From: a virus | Lineage: Duplodnaviria > Caudoviricetes | Direction: 5' to 3' (one strand) | Virus record (IMG/VR): IMGVR_UViG_3300044711_000095 | Location: 1-64,000 of that record | Length of the DNA stretch: 64,000 bases | Translations under genes and position numbers: made by a program | In this document: one piece after another, positions 19,314 to 31,841 of the stretch | Numbering within the stretch: the first letter of the stretch is position 1 | Layout of the letters: each line of letters opens with the position of its first letter | The notes under the pieces: model-generated | What the model was told of the DNA's origin: nothing | What the model saw: the letters and a program-made list of their open reading frames with translations, nothing else | Databases searched by the model: none

Positions 19314-19436
19314 CTAACCCCCGGGGTCCGTCGGCGGCGGGTCCGTCGGCAACGGCACCGGCGGCGGATCGAACTCGCCCACGAACCGGCCCACCGCGGC
19401 CACCACAGCCCACCAGACGGCCTGGACGGCGTTCAC
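19314..19436 (-). CDS. Small Pro-rich hypothetical protein (40 aa)
   Basis: GTGA overlap with upstream gene. Confidence 0.4.
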   Translation of the reverse strand: MNAVQAVWWAVVAAVGRFVGEFDPPPVPLPTDPPPTDPGG

Positions 19437-19621
19437 CGGCCGGGCTCCGCGCACACGCACCCCGGGAGGGTGCACAGGCGCCTGTGCCCGCCGGGGTTCG
19501 CGGCCCGGTACGTGAACCATTCGGGGTCCATCAGGAAAGCGAACCGGCGGTCAGCGGCCCGCAGCATCGCCTCGGTGACCGGCCGGGGCGTCGACCAGTC
19601 GACCGGCCCGGCGGCCCTCAC
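19433..19621 (-). CDS. Hypothetical protein with C-terminal Cys cluster
   Basis: GTGA overlaps; ...HRRLCTLPGCVC. Confidence 0.5.
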   Translation of the reverse strand: MRAAGPVDWSTPRPVTEAMLRAADRRFAFLMDPEWFTYRAANPGGHRRLCTLPGCVCAEPGR

Positions 19622-19869
19622 CGGGCCACCAACCACACCACGAGGGTGATCAGAGCGGCGGGCGACAGGGCCACCAGGTACGGCAGGGACCTCTGCCACG
19701 GCGACCGGTCGTAGAAACCCGACGAGTGCCGGCCCGCGGGGGTGCCGGGCGGCACCCATTCGATGGCGGACACGACCAGGCCGTCCGCCCGGCCCGTCAG
19801 CGCCTGGGTGCGGGCCCGGGCGGCGGCACGGGCAACCACCACATCCACGTCGTCCACGGGCCGGTTCAC
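19618..19869 (-). CDS. Hypothetical membrane protein
   Basis: C-terminal TM LPYLVALSPAALITLVVWLVA; GTGA overlaps. Confidence 0.55.
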   Translation of the reverse strand: MNRPVDDVDVVVARAAARARTQALTGRADGLVVSAIEWVPPGTPAGRHSSGFYDRSPWQRSLPYLVALSPAALITLVVWLVAR

Positions 19870-20147
19870 AGGGCACGCGCCTGCTCCGCGAGCTGGGACC
19901 GCAACCGGGCCGCGACCCGCGACAAGGCCCGCAGGTCACCGACCAGGGCCGGGTCCTTCCCGGACATCGCGGCCGACATACCCAACGTGGCGATCCCGGA
20001 CGTGAGGACCGCGGCCATGTTGACCAGCTCCCGGGGGTCACCGCGGTCCTGGGCGGGGTCCGGGTTGATGTCGAGTTCGGTCCGCTGCCGGGGCGTCAGG
20101 TCGGGGTACGCGGACAGGGGGGTCGCAACGAACGTGGTGGTGGACAT
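19866..20147 (-). CDS. Hypothetical protein
   Basis: ATG 20147 with GGA-type RBS; MSTTTFVATPLSAYPDL. Confidence 0.6.
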   Translation of the reverse strand: MSTTTFVATPLSAYPDLTPRQRTELDINPDPAQDRGDPRELVNMAAVLTSGIATLGMSAAMSGKDPALVGDLRALSRVAARLRSQLAEQARAL

Positions 20148-20297
20148 GGTCGGGGTCCGTTTCCGTGAGCGGGGGGATGCTGACCACGAGTTCATCGGCC
20201 CCCGCCGCGCGTTCCTTGAGCCCGAGGCGCCAGATGTCGCCCGGACGGCCGAATGCCCGGCCCACGGGAGAGGCCGGGCACTCGGTGAACCATCCTG

Positions 20298-21908
20298 TCA
20301 GGACATGAACGGCCAGTCCTGCGACCTGGCCCGCTCGATCAGGGGAATCAGTCGGAAAGCAGCGTCGGTCAGGCCACCGAACGTGTGCCGGTTCTCCGCC
20401 CCGGCCGCACCGTGCCCCGGCCGGTACCCGCCCACGTTCCACGTGTACATGGGCACACCGGCAGGAACCGCAGAGTCCACCGAGCTGCCCGACTGCGACA
20501 ACGCGGTCTGCTCATCTGTGATCACGATGACCCGGTCGTGGCCCTGGTAGTTCTCCACGATCGCCCGGGGCGTGTCCGTACCCGAGTCCATCCGGAACCG
20601 GCCCATCACCGCTAGGACGGCGTCACCCTTCCCGACCGGCACCCGGTAATGGGTGAACCCGTAGCCGACCAGGTCCGCTGACTCCGCGCGGACCGCGACC
20701 GCAGCGCCGAACAGTTTCGCCTGGTCCGCGAGGCTGATGTCCGACCGGTTCGAGGTCGAATAGTGGTAGCCGGGGAACATCGACGGGGACTGGTCGACGC
20801 AGATCAGCGTGCGGCCCGGCAGTGCGGGGACGTTCGTTAGGGAAGCGGTCAGCGCCTTCTCCAACGCGTGGCCCCACCGCAGGGACCCGACGGCTGTGTG
20901 CGCGGCGTAGTACCGGAACGGGAACTGCCGGGACCTCCGCACCTCGTCCGGGTCGCAGATCCTGGCGGCGACCTGCTCCGCGATGTCGTCGGGGACACCA
21001 GCCTGGTCGAAGTTCCGCAGGTTCCGGACCAACGCCATCGTTCCCATGCTGGGGATGACCCACGACCACGCCTCGGCGTCCATCCCGCCGGGGATCCATC
21101 CCGACAGCCACTCCCACGTCGCGCCGGCGTGGCCGAGCGCCCCGGACGGTCCACGGCCGTTCTCCCGGAGGATGTCCCGCCGGTGCTCGGCGGGGATGGA
21201 CTCCAGCCACTGCCGGAACTCCACGGCAGGGAGTGACCCCGCCTCGATCCGCACGTCCCCGGCGTGGTGACGGCGGTCCAGTAGGTACCGGAAGAGTGCC
21301 GCCTGGGACGGGTCCGTTGGCTCCGGGTGCACCAGCTCCACCACGTCACCCATCCGCCACTTCCCGCCGGTCCCGTCGTACTTGAGGGCCGCCCGCTCTG
21401 TGAACATCCGGGCTACCGCGTCCGCGACGCCACGCTTCACCGGCTTCGGGACCGCCCGGCCGTACCGGTTCGTCCAGTACGCGAGCATCTCGGCCGGCTC
21501 GTCGGGCCGCTGCAACGCAGACGCGATGATCTTCCGGTTCGTGGTGTCCGACACGATCTGGGTGGTCAGCCGCTCCCGGACCGTCTCCGCCGCCAGCACC
21601 ACCGCCGCGGACCGCATGTTCAGCTCGGCCCGCAGCCACGGAACGAACCGGGCCACCCACTCGGGGTCCTCTCGGGTCACCTGACGGGCCAGGTCCACGA
21701 ACCGGGAGTCCCGGACGGCCCCGGCCTCGTAGAACGTGTCCTCGCTGACCTTGTTCGCGGCGGCGAGGAGGAACAGTTCCGACTTCGCGTCCCGGACGGA
21801 CCCGTGGCCGCCCTCGTGGGTGCGGGTGGCCGGGTCGGTGGTGGCGGTCACGGGCGACGTGATCCCGGCGGCGCCGAGGGTGCGGGTGGCGTTCGCGAAC
21901 TTCGACAT
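20298..21908 (-). CDS. rsr: Ro60/TROVE RNA-binding protein (Rsr ortholog) with C-terminal vWA domain
   Basis: THEGG.G..RDAKSELFLLA, DTFYE, LR.E.NMRS, LQRPDEPAEML, VPKPVKRGVADA, MALVRNLRNF, SRQFPFRY; vWA VDQSPSM, SGTDT, ITDEQ; GGAGA RBS. Confidence 0.95.
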   Translation of the reverse strand: MSKFANATRTLGAAGITSPVTATTDPATRTHEGGHGSVRDAKSELFLLAAANKVSEDTFYEAGAVRDSRFVDLARQVTREDPEWVARFVPWLRAELNMRSAAVVLAAETVRERLTTQIVSDTTNRKIIASALQRPDEPAEMLAYWTNRYGRAVPKPVKRGVADAVARMFTERAALKYDGTGGKWRMGDVVELVHPEPTDPSQAALFRYLLDRRHHAGDVRIEAGSLPAVEFRQWLESIPAEHRRDILRENGRGPSGALGHAGATWEWLSGWIPGGMDAEAWSWVIPSMGTMALVRNLRNFDQAGVPDDIAEQVAARICDPDEVRRSRQFPFRYYAAHTAVGSLRWGHALEKALTASLTNVPALPGRTLICVDQSPSMFPGYHYSTSNRSDISLADQAKLFGAAVAVRAESADLVGYGFTHYRVPVGKGDAVLAVMGRFRMDSGTDTPRAIVENYQGHDRVIVITDEQTALSQSGSSVDSAVPAGVPMYTWNVGGYRPGHGAAGAENRHTFGGLTDAAFRLIPLIERARSQDWPFMS

Positions 21909-21927
21909 GGCTGGTCTCCAGACGTGG

Positions 21928-21964
21928 GGAAGGGGGCCTGACACACGTATACGTCGGCCCCTTC
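21928..21964. other. Hairpin between ncRNA array and Ro60 RBS
   Basis: GAAGGGGGCC..GAC / GTC.GGCCCCTTC stem. Confidence 0.5.
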
Positions 21965-21974
21965 ACGTCACACT

Positions 21975-22126
21975 CATGGATGCCCGAGGACCAGGTCGGC
22001 TCGACGGAATTTAGCGCTCTACCAACTGAGCTACGGCCCGGCCTAGACCGAACCGGCGGGACTCGAACCCGTGACCTCTCGAACCAGAATCGAAGTACCG
22101 CCGTGCCTGCGCACCGGGCATCCATG
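21975..22126 (-). ncRNA. Y-RNA-like (YrlA-type) unit A, circularly permuted tRNA mimic
   Basis: 12-bp terminal stem CATGGATGCCCG/CGGGCATCCATG; T arm CGGG-UUCGAGU-CCCG, loop-closed acceptor CGGUUCGG/CCGGGCCG, D arm UAGCUCAGUUGGUAGAGC; scaffold CGGUGCG..UACUUC..GGUCCUCG. Confidence 0.85.
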
Positions 22127-22129
22127 TGT

Positions 22130-22237
22130 GTGCACGAGGACCGTCCGGTCAGGGGATTGCAGGGATCGAACCCTGCGGTCGGACCCTGCGGCCCAACTTT
22201 CATGCCAGAAGTACCCCTGTGCCTTCGCACCGTGCAC
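22130..22237 (-). ncRNA. Y-RNA-like unit B, T-arm-only inner domain
   Basis: Terminal stem GTGCACG/CGTGCAC; same scaffold motifs; GCAGGG-UUCGAU-CCCUGC hairpin; no D arm. Confidence 0.7.
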
Positions 22238-22255
22238 GAACTATTCAATTATGTG

Positions 22256-22395
22256 GGGCGCGCGAGGACCCCTGACGTTGAAGCTGACATGTCGGCTGCT
22301 CTGCCAATTGAGCTACGGAACCGTGTGGCCCCGACCGGACTTGAACCGGCAACCCGCTGATTAGGAAGTAAGCCTCAACTACGCACCGCGCGCCC
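22256..22395 (-). ncRNA. Y-RNA-like (YrlA-type) unit C, circularly permuted tRNA mimic
   Basis: 9-bp terminal stem GGGCGCGCG/CGCGCGCCC; GCCGG-UUCAAGU-CCGGU T arm, CGGGGCC-ACAC-GGUUCCG closed acceptor, UAGCUCAAUUGGCAGAGC D arm; same scaffold. Confidence 0.85.
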
Positions 22396-22408
22396 TATGC
22401 AGTTAGGT

Positions 22409-22480
22409 GAGCGAGGACCGTGCGCCCGACCCGACGGGTTCTCTTAACAGGAGGAAGTAGGGCCAGGCTGCGCACCGCTC
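22409..22480 (-). ncRNA. Y-RNA-like unit D, minimal scaffold without tRNA arms
   Basis: GAGCG/CGCTC terminal stem; CGGUGCG, UACUUC, GGUCCUCG conserved; inner stem GCCUGGCCC/GGGUCGGGC. Confidence 0.6.
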
Positions 22481-22599
22481 GATCCACAGAGAACCACAGC
22501 GGGCCGACAGTCGTCCACCGGGTACCCCCAGTTGGGCGTGCCATGGAGATTTGGTGCCGGGGGCTCAGGTCGGCCCAGTCGCTGGCCCCCGGCGGACGC

Positions 22600-22629
22600 A
22601 TCCTGACCCTAAACGGTGCGGGCATGCAA
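22600..22629 (-). promoter_or_regulatory. Candidate promoter for ncRNA-Ro60 transcript
   Basis: TTGCAT-18 bp-CAGGAT; the predicted start falls at a 9-bp hairpin GCCGGGGGC/GCCCCCGGC (22556-22593). Confidence 0.35.
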
Positions 22630-22656
22630 GTGTCGTCGCTGTCCGTGTACGCCCGT

Positions 22657-23061
22657 TCAGCCGCCCGTAAGCACCCGCGCCTCGGGCCGGAACGGTGACC
22701 GCCGGGCCCGGAGGCCCCCCACGTGGTGGGCGACGGACCGCAGTTCGGCCTCGTCGAGGCCGTCGAGGATCCCGTGGTGTGGCGGGCACCTGTGGGGGAC
22801 GGGGAACCCGAGGGTGTGCCCGACGTGCTCTACGGGGTTCCAGTCGTCCACGGCTTGTAGGGCGCGGATCCTGGCGAGGCACCGGTGGGTGTGGGGTGTT
22901 CGGAACCCGACGATCTGGGTGCGTTCGTCGAGGAGTAGGTCGAGGAGTTGGGTGGACAGCCCGGATTCGTCGGCGAGGGATGCGAGGTCGGGTCGCGGGC
23001 CGAGGCGGTAACGGAGCCACTGGTTGAGGGTCATGTCTTCGACTGGGGGAAGGGTCGGCAT
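22657..23061 (-). CDS. Putative HTH DNA-binding protein (candidate repressor)
   Basis: LNQWLRYRLG..PDLASLADESGLSTQLLDLLL HTH-like pattern; divergent from early operon. Confidence 0.45.
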   Translation of the reverse strand: MPTLPPVEDMTLNQWLRYRLGPRPDLASLADESGLSTQLLDLLLDERTQIVGFRTPHTHRCLARIRALQAVDDWNPVEHVGHTLGFPVPHRCPPHHGILDGLDEAELRSVAHHVGGLRARRSPFRPEARVLTGG

Positions 23062-23249
23062 GCCCTACATGGTCCGTGGATGTGTGGTTTCCGGCAAGCG
23101 TCCGTTCGACACGCCGCATGGGTGAACGTGTAGCCATCCGGCCACGCAGCGCAGTAACGTCGTCTGCACACACCACCCGCGGAACCACCCCGACCCTGTC
23201 GGACCCACGCGGGACCATCACCCCAACCAAACCCACCCGGGAGCACCCC

Positions 23250-23423
23250 ATGCCCTACACGAACGACGGCACCCCCGTGCCCTACGACCGCGACGACGTG
23301 TACGACCAGGACGCCGACCGACCCGTCGACCTCACCGACCCCGACCGGGACCTGCCCGTCGACCCGGACCGGGACGTGTACACCGAACTGGCGTGGGCCC
23401 GTTCCCTGTGGGACACCAAGTGA
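23250..23423 (+). CDS. Small acidic hypothetical protein
   Basis: GGGAG RBS; MPYTNDGTPVPYDRDD... Confidence 0.6.
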   Translation: MPYTNDGTPVPYDRDDVYDQDADRPVDLTDPDRDLPVDPDRDVYTELAWARSLWDTK

Positions 23424-23749
23424 CCGACCAGATGCTGGACCGCGGCTACACCCCGTCCGTGACCGCCCAGATCCGGCGGGTCGCCACCCGGCTGCGGCTC
23501 CTTCGGACCCTCGAAGGGCTGTCCCTACGCGCCGCCGCCGAGAAATCCGGCACCCCCGCAGTCGTGATCGGCGCGTACGAACGGTCCGACCGGCTTCCCA
23601 CCTTGGGGACCCTGTTCACGTACCTGGACGGGATGGGCTGGACGATCTGGGATGTCCTGCCCCCACCGCCCGGGTATGAGCGGTCCCTGACGAACACGGA
23701 GCGAGCTGAGGTGCTCGAAGCGGTCGCCGCGGACCTGAGGGCCCGGTGA
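23420..23749 (+). CDS. XRE/Cro-C1 HTH transcriptional regulator
   Basis: RLRLLRTLEGLSLRAAAEKSG...IGAYERSDRLPTLGTL. Confidence 0.85.
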   Translation: MTDQMLDRGYTPSVTAQIRRVATRLRLLRTLEGLSLRAAAEKSGTPAVVIGAYERSDRLPTLGTLFTYLDGMGWTIWDVLPPPPGYERSLTNTERAEVLEAVAADLRAR

Positions 23750-23859
23750 ACGCCGCGATGGCCGCCGCCCCGGGGACCGTGGGTGACGCGATCGGTTTGG
23801 CCGCGTTCGGGATCGTCATCACGTGGGCTGTCGTCGAGCTGTTGAAGGGGCTGTTCTAG
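23746..23859 (+). CDS. Small TM peptide (37 aa)
   Basis: GTGA overlap; IGLAAFGIVITWAVVELL. Confidence 0.5.
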   Translation: MNAAMAAAPGTVGDAIGLAAFGIVITWAVVELLKGLF

Positions 23860-24132
23860 GTGGCCCGCGGCGCGGCCCTCGCCGAGGACATCGTGTGGGT
23901 CTACCGGACCGTGGGTGGTGTCACCGCCCAACAGATCGCCGAGCGGCTCGGGATCCGGAGCGTCTCAACCGTGTACCGGGCCCTCGACGCGGCCGGCCTG
24001 TCGGACGTCGCTGGGACGCTGCGGTCGCGGGGGGCGGCGGCCAGCACCGGCGGATTCAACTGCGGGTCCGGTGTGTGCCCCAGATGTAACGGCACGTACA
24101 AGGCCCGGTACGGGACGAGGAGAGCAGCGTGA
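23860..24132 (+). CDS. HTH DNA-binding protein with C-terminal Cys cluster
   Basis: TAQQIAERLGIRSVSTVYRAL; CGSGVCPRC. Confidence 0.7.
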   Translation: MARGAALAEDIVWVYRTVGGVTAQQIAERLGIRSVSTVYRALDAAGLSDVAGTLRSRGAAASTGGFNCGSGVCPRCNGTYKARYGTRRAA

Positions 24133-24962
24133 CGGAAACGACAGCCTGGGGGATCACCCCCGAGCAGTACACGTACCTACGGCAGGCGATCAACCAGAAC
24201 CGGGTCCGGGAACTGTCCGGGAACTCCCACCTGGAGGCGTGGGACGTCCGCAGGACCCTGACCCGAGTGTTCGGGTTCGGGGGCTGGGACGTGGAGACCC
24301 GCGACCTGGTCCTGGTCAAGGAGATCGAGATCCCTCCGCGTTCGGAGGGCGGGAAGTCCCGGTGGACGGTCGTGTACCGGGCTGACGTCCGGCTGGTCAT
24401 CAAGGACGCCGCCGGGCGGGAGATATGCCACTTCGACGATTCGGCGGCCGGAGATTCGCAGAACCAGCCGGTGGTCGGCGACGCCCACGACCACGCGATG
24501 AAGACGGCCCTGTCGCAGGCGTTGAAGCGGTGCGCGGTGAACCTCGGTGACCAGTTCGGCTTGTCGCTGTACGACAAGCGCCGGGTCGAGGGGACGTCGG
24601 TGGTAGGTGGCTCGCTGGTCCGGCCGGCGTCGGAGCCGACGGTTACGGTGGAGGACGCCACACCGGTCACAGGCGGGGAGTTGGACGACAACCAGGACGT
24701 GGGCGACGCCCCCTACGAGGCCGTACCTGTCGCGCCCGTACCGCCGCGTCCACCGGTGATGACGAAGGCCGAGCGGTCGGCGCTGCTCGACGCGATCATC
24801 ATCGGCGCCGAATCGGTCGGAGTCAGCCGGTTGGACGCCGCGAAGAGGTTCGCCGACAAGTACGGAACCCAGATCGGTGAGGGTTTGAAAGCGGACCTGG
24901 AGGCGTTCCGGGACGAGTTCCGGGCCTTGTGGGTCGCCAAGCGACGGGAGAACGCGCAGTGA
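24129..24962 (+). CDS. Rad52/Rad22-family ssDNA annealing protein (Sak-like)
   Basis: SHLEAWDVRRTLTRVFGFGGW...AHDHAMKTALSQALKRCAVNLGDQFGLSLYDK. Confidence 0.9.
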   Translation: MTETTAWGITPEQYTYLRQAINQNRVRELSGNSHLEAWDVRRTLTRVFGFGGWDVETRDLVLVKEIEIPPRSEGGKSRWTVVYRADVRLVIKDAAGREICHFDDSAAGDSQNQPVVGDAHDHAMKTALSQALKRCAVNLGDQFGLSLYDKRRVEGTSVVGGSLVRPASEPTVTVEDATPVTGGELDDNQDVGDAPYEAVPVAPVPPRPPVMTKAERSALLDAIIIGAESVGVSRLDAAKRFADKYGTQIGEGLKADLEAFRDEFRALWVAKRRENAQ

Positions 24963-25534
24963 CCGATCCCTTGTTGGACGAGTTCGACGACCCGGAGTCG
25001 TGGGATGTCCCCGAAGACTGGACCGAGGACGCGGCGGTGGAGGTCGCCGACTTGGCGATGGCCACCGAACTGTCCCGGAAGTTGCGGGGCGTGGATCGTT
25101 GGCTGGCCGAGCTGGACGCTCGGGCCGAGGCGGAACTGGACCGGCTGCAGCGGCGCGCGGTAGAGGTGTCCGCGCGGGCCCGGCGACGGCGGGCGTGGAT
25201 CGTCGCCCAGTTGGAGGCGTACGCGCTGGATCGCCGGCATCGGTACGGGGAGAAGACCACGGAGCTGATGTATGCGGTGGTGAAGACCACAGAGTGCGGC
25301 GGCGGGTGGACGGCCGACGAAGACGCGATCGACTGGGCCCGGTTCAACGCTCCGGAGCTGTTGGCGACCAACCCGAAACTGAAGATCGCCGACGCGAAGA
25401 ACCGGCCCGGGTGGAAGGTCGATGGGGACAGGGTGTTGGACGTCGAGACGGGCGAGTTCATCCCCGGCATCACGGTGGCACCGAAGGGCGTCAACGTGAC
25501 CGTGAAGGTTCTCCCGGATGGGAGCGGTCGATGA
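24959..25534 (+). CDS. Mu Gam-like host-nuclease inhibitor
   Basis: Coiled coil, then WARFNAPELL.TNPKLKIADAK...DVETGEFIPGITV. Confidence 0.7.
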   Translation: MTDPLLDEFDDPESWDVPEDWTEDAAVEVADLAMATELSRKLRGVDRWLAELDARAEAELDRLQRRAVEVSARARRRRAWIVAQLEAYALDRRHRYGEKTTELMYAVVKTTECGGGWTADEDAIDWARFNAPELLATNPKLKIADAKNRPGWKVDGDRVLDVETGEFIPGITVAPKGVNVTVKVLPDGSGR

Positions 25535-30761: not shown

Positions 30762-31841
30762 ATGGTCGATGGGCACCGACCGGCTGTCGAATGGGTCACG
30801 TCGATCCCCCGGGAGTGGGGCGTGACGCCGCCGGAGCGCCTCGTCTTGATGTGCTTGGCGTGTGACGCTTTCGACTGGGAGTCCGCCCCCGGGTATGACG
30901 CAGTCGCTGAATGGACGGGAATGCAGCGGTCGTCGTGCGCCGAGATTCTGACCCGGCTCTGCGAGGGCGCCTCAACGCGACCCGCGCTGCTTGAAAAGAT
31001 TTCCACAATGGGCCGGCGGCGCACCATCTTTCGCCTTCTCGGCAAGGAAACGGGTTCCGCTCAACCGTCCGGCGGGGCCGGACGGTTCGGGGGTGGGCCG
31101 GACGCTGACGCGGACGAGGCCAACCGTCCGGCGTCACCGGACGGTTCGACCGACGAGATGGGCGAAGGGGACAGCGAACCGTCCGGCCGCACAGGACGGT
31201 TCAACCGTCTGGCCGAGCCGGACGGTTCGGGCCAACCGTCCGGCGTCACCGGACGGTTAGGACGCGGCGCGAACCGTCCGGCCGCACAGGACGGTTCAGC
31301 ACTGCAGGAGCCGTCAACCGTCGGCGAACCGTCGGCGAACCGTCCGGCCGGGCCGGACACGCCCTTAACCCTTAACCCAACTACGTCTCTTGACTCACCT
31401 TCCGAGGGGGGTACGGGGGGAGACGCGTCGCAGCAAGCTGCTCCGCCAGCCAAGACCAACTCAGCCAGGGGGCACCGGATCCCGGCCGACTGGGTGCCCA
31501 GCGTGGCCAAGCGGACGACTCTCCGCGAGAAATACGACCGGCCCAATGACTGGTGGCTCGACGAGACGGAGGCTTTCAGGAACCATTTCCTGGCCAGCAC
31601 CGGCAGGAATGCGTCGAAGACGAATTGGGACCTGGCGTTCCACAACTGGATCAAGGAGGCGATCCGCCGGGAAGGCGGCCCGAACGGCGGCCGTCGCTGG
31701 GCCCCCAACGGATCGCCGAGCGGGTCGAAGGCCGACGACGCGATCAAGGACATGGCTGCCCGCGCGGCGGCGATCAAGGCGGCGAAACAGACCGCGAACG
31801 GCAACACCCAACCCCAACTCGCCATCGAAGGATCATCGTGA
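30762..31841 (+). CDS. Replication initiator (lambda O-like; N-terminal wHTH)
   Basis: TPPERLVLMCLA..SAPGYDAVAEWTGMQRSS; C-term RGHRIPADWVP...FRNHF...NWDLAFHNW; followed by loader and DnaB. Confidence 0.8.
   Translation: MVDGHRPAVEWVTSIPREWGVTPPERLVLMCLACDAFDWESAPGYDAVAEWTGMQRSSCAEILTRLCEGASTRPALLEKISTMGRRRTIFRLLGKETGSAQPSGGAGRFGGGPDADADEANRPASPDGSTDEMGEGDSEPSGRTGRFNRLAEPDGSGQPSGVTGRLGRGANRPAAQDGSALQEPSTVGEPSANRPAGPDTPLTLNPTTSLDSPSEGGTGGDASQQAAPPAKTNSARGHRIPADWVPSVAKRTTLREKYDRPNDWWLDETEAFRNHFLASTGRNASKTNWDLAFHNWIKEAIRREGGPNGGRRWAPNGSPSGSKADDAIKDMAARAAAIKAAKQTANGNTQPQLAIEGSS
31063..31400. repeat. Replication origin: palindromic 25-bp iterons plus less GC-rich tract
   Basis: AACCGTCCGG-N5-CCGGACGGTT-like units at 31063, 31122, 31177, 31203, 31234, 31272; partial unit at 31338; then CCCTTAACCCTTAACCCAACTA. 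Confidence 0.8.

What the first reader, a model, noticed from the sequence alone, without database searches (positions are those of the whole stretch)
20298..22480. Ro60 gene preceded by a tandem array of four Y-RNA-like RNAs with one scaffold and different payloads
Seen: four adjacent units (72-152 nt) on the Ro60 strand. Each is closed by a different terminal stem and each keeps CGGUGCG-N11/12-UACUUC near the 5' end and GGUCCUCG at the 3' end, with a compensating inner stem (CAGG/CCUG, CAGGGG/CCCCUG, GUUGAGGC/GCUUCAAC, GCCUGGCCC/GGGUCGGGC). Known: bacterial Ro60 (Rsr) binds Y RNAs, YrlA RNAs mimic tRNA and can tether Rsr to partners such as PNPase, and Ro-like proteins occur in some actinophages. 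Inferred: a phage ribonucleoprotein platform in which one Ro60 is loaded with four different adaptors. Possible roles are decoys for tRNA-targeting defence nucleases, RNA decay or RNA repair. I cannot confirm whether this four-member array is already described.
Basis: partly seen in the sequence, partly recalled or inferred. Interest (0 to 1): 0.9.

Follow-up and report, generated by a model that had tools for sequence, protein, structure and literature searches.

The report
Phage Ro60 gene with four Y RNAs
An uncultured actinobacterial phage carries a gene for the RNA-binding ring protein Ro60, preceded by four small partner "Y RNA" genes that share one handle but carry different, partly tRNA-shaped heads; this is a sound example of a known protein-RNA pairing whose arrays prove common in Streptomyces-family bacteria and their phages.

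Summary
Four closed units of 72, 140, 108 and 152 nt lie head to tail on the Ro60 strand. Each has its own terminal stem (P1), a 5' GGUGCGNAG motif, a compensating inner stem (P2), UACUUC, and GGUCCU just before the 3' strand of P1. The composite 5' motif occurs 4 times in the window against 0 expected.

The gene is a real Ro60: a TROVE domain plus a vWA part with an intact MIDAS motif.

- Units B and D carry a T arm, a closed acceptor stem and a D arm in YrlA order. They match Rfam YrlA at E 3e-6 and 1e-4, below its gathering score.
- Unit D is a complete circularly permuted tRNA with an anticodon-like arm. ARAGORN calls it tRNA-Gln(CUG) once it is un-permuted.
- Unit A is a YrlB-type hairpin. 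A model built only from chromosomal relatives finds it as the top hit in the window.

The same handle occurs in 3-5 copies upstream of Ro60 in Streptomyces phages BRock and GiJojo, Gordonia phage VanLee, a Kitasatospora genome and a sample of Streptomycetaceae chromosomes. It is unannotated there or mis-called as tRNA.

This scan has already reported such arrays on other DNA. I file it as a new member of a known kind (Ro60 with YrlA/YrlB Y RNAs). The adaptor or decoy function is inferred, not shown.

The parts
20298..21908 (-). Ro60 (Rsr-like) gene, 536 aa: TROVE domain plus a vWA part with MIDAS motif DQSPS...T...D
   Evidence: Pfam TROVE E 1.2e-14, above its cut-off. PHROG 850 RNA-binding protein E 4e-44 over residues 13-540. 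Thermus phage phiLo Ro60 structures 9KOP and 9L5Y at E 7e-28. 45% identity to the Ro-like protein of Streptomyces phage BRock. The MIDAS motif is read directly in the translation.
21921..21969 (-). GC-rich hairpin between the last Y RNA and the Ro60 ribosome-binding site; no U tract
   Evidence: Fold. Hairpins at the same place in L002, BRock, GiJojo and VanLee are followed by U runs (read). The consensus terminator scan did not call this one.
21975..22126 (-). Unit D, 152 nt. P1 of 12 bp, handle, P2, and a complete circularly permuted tRNA-like module (22094-22015). The module has an anticodon-like arm (5-bp stem, loop UUCUGGU), a 5-nt variable loop, a T arm, a 7-bp acceptor stem extended by 2 pairs and closed by a tetraloop, and a D arm.
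   Evidence: Rfam YrlA 31.3 bits, E 1e-4. After an in silico cut in the acceptor loop and a join of D arm to anticodon arm, ARAGORN calls tRNA-Gln(CUG) for 17 of 19 junction choices that gave a call. Coordinates. P1 and handle resemble the Ro60-proximal unit of L002 and Streptomycetaceae loci.
22130..22237 (-). Unit C, 108 nt. P1 of 7 bp, handle, P2 with an internal loop, a 3-bp/6-nt mini hairpin on UUC, an 8-bp hairpin (22197-22178) and an atypical T-arm-like hairpin with a UUCGAU loop (22176-22159). No D arm.
   Evidence: Fold z-score -3.5, 1 of 200 shuffles as good. Motif positions.
22256..22395 (-). Unit B, 140 nt. P1 of 9 bp, handle, P2 of 8 bp, and a YrlA-type module (22350-22297) with a T arm, a 7-bp closed acceptor stem (loop ACAC) and a D arm. 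The anticodon-like hairpin is degenerate.
   Evidence: Rfam YrlA 36.6 bits, E 3.2e-6, full model length. Coordinates. Acceptor 7 of 7 pairs.
22409..22480 (-). Unit A, 72 nt minimal (YrlB-type) unit. P1 of 5 bp, handle, P2 of 9 bp, and a tip hairpin (22456-22439) with the 7-nt loop CUGUUAA, the same letters as a tRNA-Asn anticodon loop.
   Evidence: Model R1, built from 24 chromosomal hairpin units with no window sequence, finds it as the top hit in the window and the only one under E 0.01 (22.4 bits, E 0.0067). Coordinates.

Best explanation
This is a phage copy of the bacterial Ro60 (Rsr) locus with four cognate Y RNAs of the actinobacterial YrlA/YrlB type.

Shown here:
- Each RNA is a closed unit. 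Its 5' and 3' ends pair (P1) and flank a conserved asymmetric internal loop, GUGCGNA on the 5' side and N4-6 plus GGUCCU on the 3' side.
- A second helix (P2) follows, and UACUUC lies at the junction to a variable head.
- The heads differ. A carries an anticodon-like hairpin only. B carries a T arm, closed acceptor stem and D arm. C carries two hairpins plus a T-arm-like hairpin. D carries a complete permuted tRNA.

Inferred by analogy with M. smegmatis YrlA/YrlB, D. radiodurans Yrn1 and phage phiLo Yrl1/2:
- The array is transcribed as one precursor ahead of Ro60 and cut into four RNAs.
- Phage Ro60 binds the shared P1 and internal-loop handle.
- Each head then tethers Ro60 to a different tRNA-recognising or RNA-degrading host protein such as PNPase, or presents a tRNA look-alike to it. 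This would redirect host RNA decay or surveillance during infection or lysogeny.
For: - Ro60 identity.
- Same strand, directly upstream of Ro60, which is the published YrlA criterion.
- Rfam YrlA is the best family match for B and D at E 3e-6 and 1e-4.
- The composite handle motif occurs 4 times against 0 expected. Cognate-only P1 pairing and compensating P2 helices.
- The same handle sits upstream of Ro60 in BRock (4 units), GiJojo (5), VanLee (4), IMG/VR relative L002 (3), Kitasatospora (3) and an Acidimicrobiia MAG (4), and typically 2-3 units in the 30 Streptomycetaceae loci scanned.
- Covariation in 24 hairpin-type relatives: 93.6% of cells paired, and 0 of 500 shuffles reach the observed covariation score. 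The model from them finds unit A.
- Un-permuted unit D is called tRNA-Gln(CUG) by ARAGORN.
- The published probes for the Rsr-bound M. smegmatis YrlA and YrlB contain ACUUC when reverse-complemented.
- phiLo Ro60 binds two upstream Yrl RNAs and host PNPase.
Against: - No unit reaches the Rfam YrlA gathering score (36.6 and 31.3 against 69 bits).
- The published 5' motif GNCGAAN0-1G is present only as a variant.
- GGUCCU lies on the 3' strand, whereas the similar-looking animal Y RNA motif lies on the 5' strand, so the Ro contact cannot be transferred from solved complexes.
- There is no expression, processing or binding evidence for this phage.
- No promoter or terminator was called by the consensus scans.
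- Single-sequence folds of A, B and D are no better than shuffles.
- The relatives used for counts are phylogenetically related, so counts overstate independent support.
Confidence: 0.85

Rival explanations
1. The tRNA-shaped units (D, perhaps B) are circularly permuted tRNA genes. They would be processed into working tRNAs, for example tRNA-Gln(CUG), that serve phage translation. The Ro60 linkage would be secondary.
For: Un-permuted D gives a full cloverleaf with a 7-bp acceptor stem. M. smegmatis YrlA is cut by RNase P and receives CCA in vivo. The literature raises this possibility for YrlA. The record has no ordinary tRNA gene.
Against: The break lies between the D arm and the anticodon arm, and it is bridged by a conserved Ro-type handle rather than a splice-type bulge-helix-bulge. 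No bacterial enzyme is known that would excise and ligate it. Units A and C lack a tRNA body but keep the handle. Anticodon-like loops differ freely between orthologous units.
Confidence: 0.05
2. The array is a cis-acting leader of the Ro60 mRNA (an attenuator or autoregulatory Ro60-binding 5' UTR), not a set of stable trans-acting RNAs.
For: It lies directly upstream on the same strand. A strong hairpin separates it from the ribosome-binding site. Terminator-like hairpins with U runs occupy this spot in relatives.
Against: There are four separately closed units with 3-18 nt spacers. In BRock, GiJojo and the Acidimicrobiia MAG the units sit among tRNA genes. The homologous M. smegmatis RNAs are stable, processed and Rsr-bound.
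Confidence: 0.06
3. The units are decayed tRNA genes, remnants of a phage tRNA array, with no function of their own.
For: Relatives keep Ro60 inside tRNA arrays. T and D arms are tRNA-like.
Against: The shared non-tRNA handle, cognate P1 and P2 pairing with compensating changes, and conservation of the architecture across phages and chromosomes with only about 45-59% identical Ro60.
Confidence: 0.03

Closest known systems
Mycobacterium smegmatis YrlA and YrlB (Chen et al. 2014, PMC4201824)
   Same: Several Y RNAs directly upstream of rsr on the same strand, processed from one precursor. One has a T arm, a 7-bp closed acceptor stem and a D arm. One is shorter, with at most a T arm. ACUUC is present in both, from the reverse complement of the published probes.
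   Different: There are four units here instead of two. The element is a phage, not a chromosome. Unit D keeps a full anticodon-like arm. [quoted passage not shown]
Salmonella Typhimurium YrlA (Rfam RF02553; tRNA-like domain structure 6CU1, bioRxiv 10.1101/312249)
   Same: A permuted tRNA-like domain (T arm, closed acceptor stem, D arm) sits on a stem that carries the Ro60 site. It is the best Rfam match for units B and D.
   Different: Scores are about half the gathering score. The published YrlA 'lacks the anticodon loop' and joins the handle through the anticodon stem. In unit D the handle joins between the D arm and an intact anticodon-like arm. The handle motif differs.
Thermus phage phiLo Ro60 with Yrl1 and Yrl2 (PMC12135203)
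   Same: A phage-encoded Ro60 with its own Y RNA-like genes directly upstream. The protein is the closest solved relative (E 7e-28).
   Different: phiLo has two RNAs with a CGAA motif and no described tRNA-like head. In phiLo, binding to Ro60 and to host PNPase was shown experimentally. Nothing was tested here.
Unannotated Y RNA arrays in deposited actinophages (Streptomyces phages BRock KX925554 and GiJojo PP725410; Gordonia phage VanLee NC_073474)
   Same: Three to five tandem units with P1, a UGC(G/C)NAG motif, P2 and UACUUC upstream of a Ro-like gene that is 42-45% identical.
   Different: The 3' handle motif is lineage-specific: UUUUCUA in BRock and GiJojo, UGACCCC in VanLee, GGUCCU here. 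Those phages carry many true tRNA genes around Ro60, and this record has none. One unit in GiJojo and one in VanLee are annotated as tRNA-Arg.

Membership tests
Ro60 / Rsr (TROVE + vWA) | TROVE (HEAT-repeat ring) domain | tested here: met
   Pfam PF05731 E 1.2e-14, 54.9 bits against a cut-off of 23. PHROG 850 over residues 13-540. phiLo Ro60 structures at E 7e-28.
Ro60 / Rsr (TROVE + vWA) | C-terminal vWA domain with MIDAS motif | tested here: met
   DQSPS, a later SGTDT and a VITDE stretch are read in the translation. No Pfam vWA hit was listed, so this rests on the motif and on full-length alignment to Ro-like proteins.
Ro60 / Rsr (TROVE + vWA) | NCBIfam equivalog RNA-bind_Rsr | tested here: not met
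   22.7 bits against a cut-off of 900. The protein is a divergent actinobacterial or phage branch, not the curated Rsr equivalog.
YrlA-type Y RNA (Rfam RF02553) | Encoded within about 4 kb of Ro60 on the same strand | tested here: met
   All four units lie 67-572 nt upstream of the Ro60 start on the minus strand.
YrlA-type Y RNA (Rfam RF02553) | Reaches the Rfam gathering score | tested here: not met
   B scores 36.6 bits and D 31.3 bits against 69. The tRNA-like units that matched YrlA in the ten relative loci scanned also scored only 35-47 bits, so the model under-calls this branch.
YrlA-type Y RNA (Rfam RF02553) | tRNA-like domain: T arm, closed acceptor stem and D arm in permuted order | tested here: met
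   Met for B and D. C has only a T-arm-like hairpin and A has none.
YrlA-type Y RNA (Rfam RF02553) | 5' strand motif GNCGAAN0-1G in the Ro60-binding stem | tested here: inconclusive
   The window has (C)GGUGCGNAG, and BRock has CGAUGCGNAG, which is nearer to CGAA(N)G. The resemblance was judged by eye only.
YrlA-type Y RNA (Rfam RF02553) | Bound and stabilised by Ro60 in vivo | not testable with these tools
   No expression or binding data.
YrlB-type minimal Y RNA | [quoted passage not shown] | tested here: met
   Unit A. Model R1, built from 24 chromosomal hairpin units, gives 22.4 bits and E 0.0067 and ranks it top in the window.

The most novel reading that the evidence does not exclude
In actinobacterial and actinophage Y RNAs the conserved UACUUC is the foot of an anticodon-arm look-alike. 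The heads would then be whole tRNAs or bare anticodon stem-loops displayed on a Ro60 handle.

A hairpin anchored on UUC with exactly a 7-nt loop occurs in 64 of 102 units, against 22 +/- 4 in shuffles. The loops have pyrimidine at position 32 in 77%, U at 33 in 81% and purine at 37 in 83%. The published YrlA is said to lack an anticodon loop.

The phage array (A Asn-like CUGUUAA, D Gln-like UUCUGGU) could then be a set of Ro60-tethered decoys or baits for anticodon-reading host factors, such as anticodon nucleases or modification enzymes.

I reproduced the pattern, but not any function.
Probability: 0.15. Interest if true: 0.75.

Novelty: new member of a known kind. Interest (0 to 1): 0.4.

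Why it matters
**Annotation.** Standard tools miss these RNAs. Rfam reports nothing at its gathering score and ARAGORN finds nothing. In deposited phage genomes homologous units are mis-called as tRNA-Arg or covered by tiny hypothetical ORFs. A dedicated model for the actinobacterial handle would fix this for many Streptomycetaceae and actinophage genomes.

**Biology.** Phage Ro60 function is still open. The only experimental phage case (phiLo) points to capture of host PNPase. A compact cassette of one Ro60 and four heads of graded complexity is a convenient system. The heads run from a bare anticodon-like hairpin to a complete permuted tRNA. One could ask what each head recruits, and whether the anticodon-like loops matter. 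The finding does not by itself change what is known about Ro60-Y RNA systems.

Tried and rejected
- Rfam at gathering threshold gave no hit in the window.
- ARAGORN found no tRNA or tmRNA. Rfam tRNA found nothing over the whole 82.5-kb record.
- Megablast of the locus against GenBank phages gave no match. Only protein-level relatives exist.
- Single-sequence MFE folds were uninformative for A, B and D.
- Cross-lineage MAFFT alignments A1 and A2 were not in structural register, and RNAalifold recovered only P1. I therefore used orthologous hairpin units (A3).
- Model R1 finds unit A but not B-D, whose large heads exceed what it can bridge.
- The consensus promoter and terminator scan found nothing.
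- Neighbouring small ORFs (19314-20195 and 22657-23061, minus strand) have no Pfam, PHROG or NCBIfam match. They are not conserved beside Ro60 in 50 other loci, so they are not part of the cassette.
The link to them rests on the published probe sequences only.
- The paper supplement with phage YrlA tables is not held, and the 2020 Annual Review is not held.
Full report
**What is there.** The window is part of an 82.5-kb linear IMG/VR virus record, about 83% complete. It carries tail sheath, tape measure and baseplate genes, a helicase, a methyltransferase, a Rad52-type recombinase and an HTH regulator. GC content is 69%.

The ORF at 20298-21944 (minus strand) is a Ro60:
- Pfam TROVE at E 1.2e-14.
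- PHROG 850 over nearly its full length.
- The solved Thermus phage phiLo Ro60 at E 7e-28.
- 45% identity to the Ro-like protein of Streptomyces phage BRock.
- A MIDAS motif, DQSPS...T...D, in the C-terminal part.

The likely start is the ATG at 21908, behind a GGAG. This gives MSKFAN, which parallels MAKFN in BRock and GiJojo.

**The four units.** Read on the minus strand, the 572 nt upstream of the start hold four closed units: A 22480-22409, B 22395-22256, C 22237-22130 and D 22126-21975. The spacers are 13, 18 and 3 nt.

Each unit has this order:
- P1 5' strand, then GUGCGNA.
- P2 5' strand, then UACUUC and the head.
- P2 3' strand, then 4-6 nt and GGUCCU.
- P1 3' strand.

The composite 5' motif occurs 4 times in the window against 0.00 in shuffles. 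P1 strands pair only with their own partners, with 5, 9, 7 and 12 bp against 2-5 for non-cognate pairs. P2 helices differ in sequence but all pair.

**The heads.**
- B and D have a T arm, a closed 7-bp acceptor stem and a D arm in the YrlA order. Rfam YrlA is their best family match at E 3.2e-6 and 1.1e-4, though far below the gathering score.
- D also has a 5-bp stem with a 7-nt loop (UUCUGGU), followed by a 5-nt variable loop and the T arm. When D is cut in the acceptor loop and joined from D arm to this hairpin, ARAGORN calls a 76-nt tRNA-Gln(CUG) cloverleaf. It does so for 17 of the 19 junction choices that gave a call. D is therefore a complete circularly permuted tRNA, with the Ro-type handle attached between the D arm and the anticodon arm.
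- A is a minimal unit whose tip is a short hairpin with loop CUGUUAA.
- C has a 3-bp/6-nt hairpin, an 8-bp hairpin and an atypical T-arm-like hairpin. Its fold is better than 199 of 200 shuffles.

**Relatives.** The same handle sits upstream of Ro60 in many places:
- An IMG/VR relative with 53% identical Ro60, three units.
- Streptomyces phages BRock (four units) and GiJojo (five), and Gordonia phage VanLee (four).
- Gordonia phage Neville, three or four units.
- Kitasatospora genomes (three units) and an Acidimicrobiia MAG, where the units are interleaved with tRNA genes.

Ro60 relatives of 47-60% identity occur in 117 of 201 sampled genomes of the family of the Kitasatospora genome. In 30 of those loci the usual array is a tRNA-like unit of about 137 nt, a hairpin unit of about 72 nt, and a tRNA-like unit of about 145 nt.

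In an alignment of 24 hairpin units, P1 and P2 are 93.6% paired, and 0 of 500 shuffles reach the observed covariation score. A covariance model built from them, with no window sequence, ranks unit A first in the window at E 0.0067.

The tRNA-like units that matched Rfam YrlA in the ten relative loci scanned scored only 35-47 bits, so this branch escapes routine annotation. In GiJojo and VanLee one unit each is annotated as tRNA-Arg. In Neville, three tiny hypothetical CDS overlap the units.

**Anticodon-like hairpin.** I anchored on the UUC of ACUUC and looked for hairpins of each loop length. A hairpin with exactly a 7-nt loop is present in 64 of 102 non-identical units. Shuffles give 22 +/- 4, with a maximum of 33 in 300. 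No other loop length stands out comparably; 9 nt comes next, with 44 units. The loops have pyrimidine at position 32 in 77%, U at 33 in 81% and purine at 37 in 83%.

Un-permuted distal units of the chromosomal arrays are called by ARAGORN as tRNA-Lys, Asn, Met, Ile or Thr. The published S. Typhimurium YrlA 'lacks the anticodon loop'.

This difference is real at the sequence level. The sample is phylogenetically related, however, and nothing shows what reads the loop.

**Comparison with what is known.** Chen et al. 2014 reported YrlA-like RNAs near Ro60 in 254 bacteria and 22 phages. They also reported two Rsr-bound RNAs (YrlA and YrlB) processed from one precursor in M. smegmatis, and four small RNAs upstream of D. 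radiodurans rsr. Phage phiLo Ro60 binds two upstream Yrl RNAs and host PNPase. The resemblance of YrlA to circularly permuted tRNA is already noted in the literature.

I found no paper describing arrays of three to five members or the anticodon-like arm in actinophages. The kind of system is known all the same. This scan has also reported such arrays repeatedly on other DNA.

**Verdict.** The identification is supported and the function is inferred. This is a new member of a known kind and of moderate interest.

Noticed in passing
L024-L050 hairpin units (e.g. L033:3299-3370, L037:3289-3358): The middle, hairpin-type Y RNA of chromosomal Streptomycetaceae arrays has an almost invariant terminal stem CCUCCCG/CGGGAGG (22-24 of 24 sequences at each pair). 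The other units vary their P1 freely. The two strands look like an anti-Shine-Dalgarno and a Shine-Dalgarno sequence. The window's unit A does not share it.
   Followed up: partly
L027, L028, L031-L035, L042-L047 distal units: The anticodon-like loops of the Ro60-distal tRNA-like unit nearly all read CU-NNU-AA (Lys, Asn, Met, Ile and Thr types, which are ANN decoders). Positions 34-35 vary between species. In several loci the acceptor loop begins ACCA or ACAA right after the acceptor 3' strand, so cleavage there could leave a CCA-like end.
   Followed up: partly
L006:2269-2343 (GiJojo), L007:2255-2326 (VanLee), L014:1993-2403 (Neville): The deposited annotations tRNA-Arg(cct) in GiJojo and tRNA-Arg(tct) in VanLee lie inside Y RNA-like units. 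Neville gp88-gp90 (43-50 aa hypothetical proteins) overlap three units. These are probably mis-annotations.
   Followed up: partly
L011:260-2420 (Acidimicrobiia MAG OZ244163): At least four Y RNA-like units are interleaved with about 15 tRNA genes directly upstream of a chromosomal Ro60. The layout resembles the BRock and GiJojo tRNA-array context.
   Followed up: no
L002:2880-2925, L005:2420-2475, L006:2420-2475, L007:2495-2530; window 21921-21969: A hairpin sits between the last Y RNA and the Ro60 ribosome-binding site in every locus I looked at. It is followed by a U run in the relatives but not in the window. This suggests the array ends in its own terminator and Ro60 is made by read-through or from a separate start.
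   Followed up: no
window 31065-31256: The R1 search picked up GC-rich palindromic 21-nt hairpins with identical scores at 31124-31144 and 31236-31256, plus another at 31065-31085. These are short repeated inverted repeats in the early region, unrelated to the Y RNAs.
   Followed up: no
window 19314-25534: Ro60 and three small unknown ORFs form the only leftward-transcribed block between the tail and lysis genes and the early region (HTH protein 23393-23749, Rad52-type recombinase 24129-24962). This is a typical place for accessory ('moron') genes. The related handle in Kitasatospora chromosomes suggests prophage carriage.
   Followed up: partly
L005:4579-4742 (BRock): A sub-threshold Rfam manA RNA match (49.7 against 55.2 bits) lies between tRNA-Lys genes downstream of BRock Ro60.
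   Followed up: no
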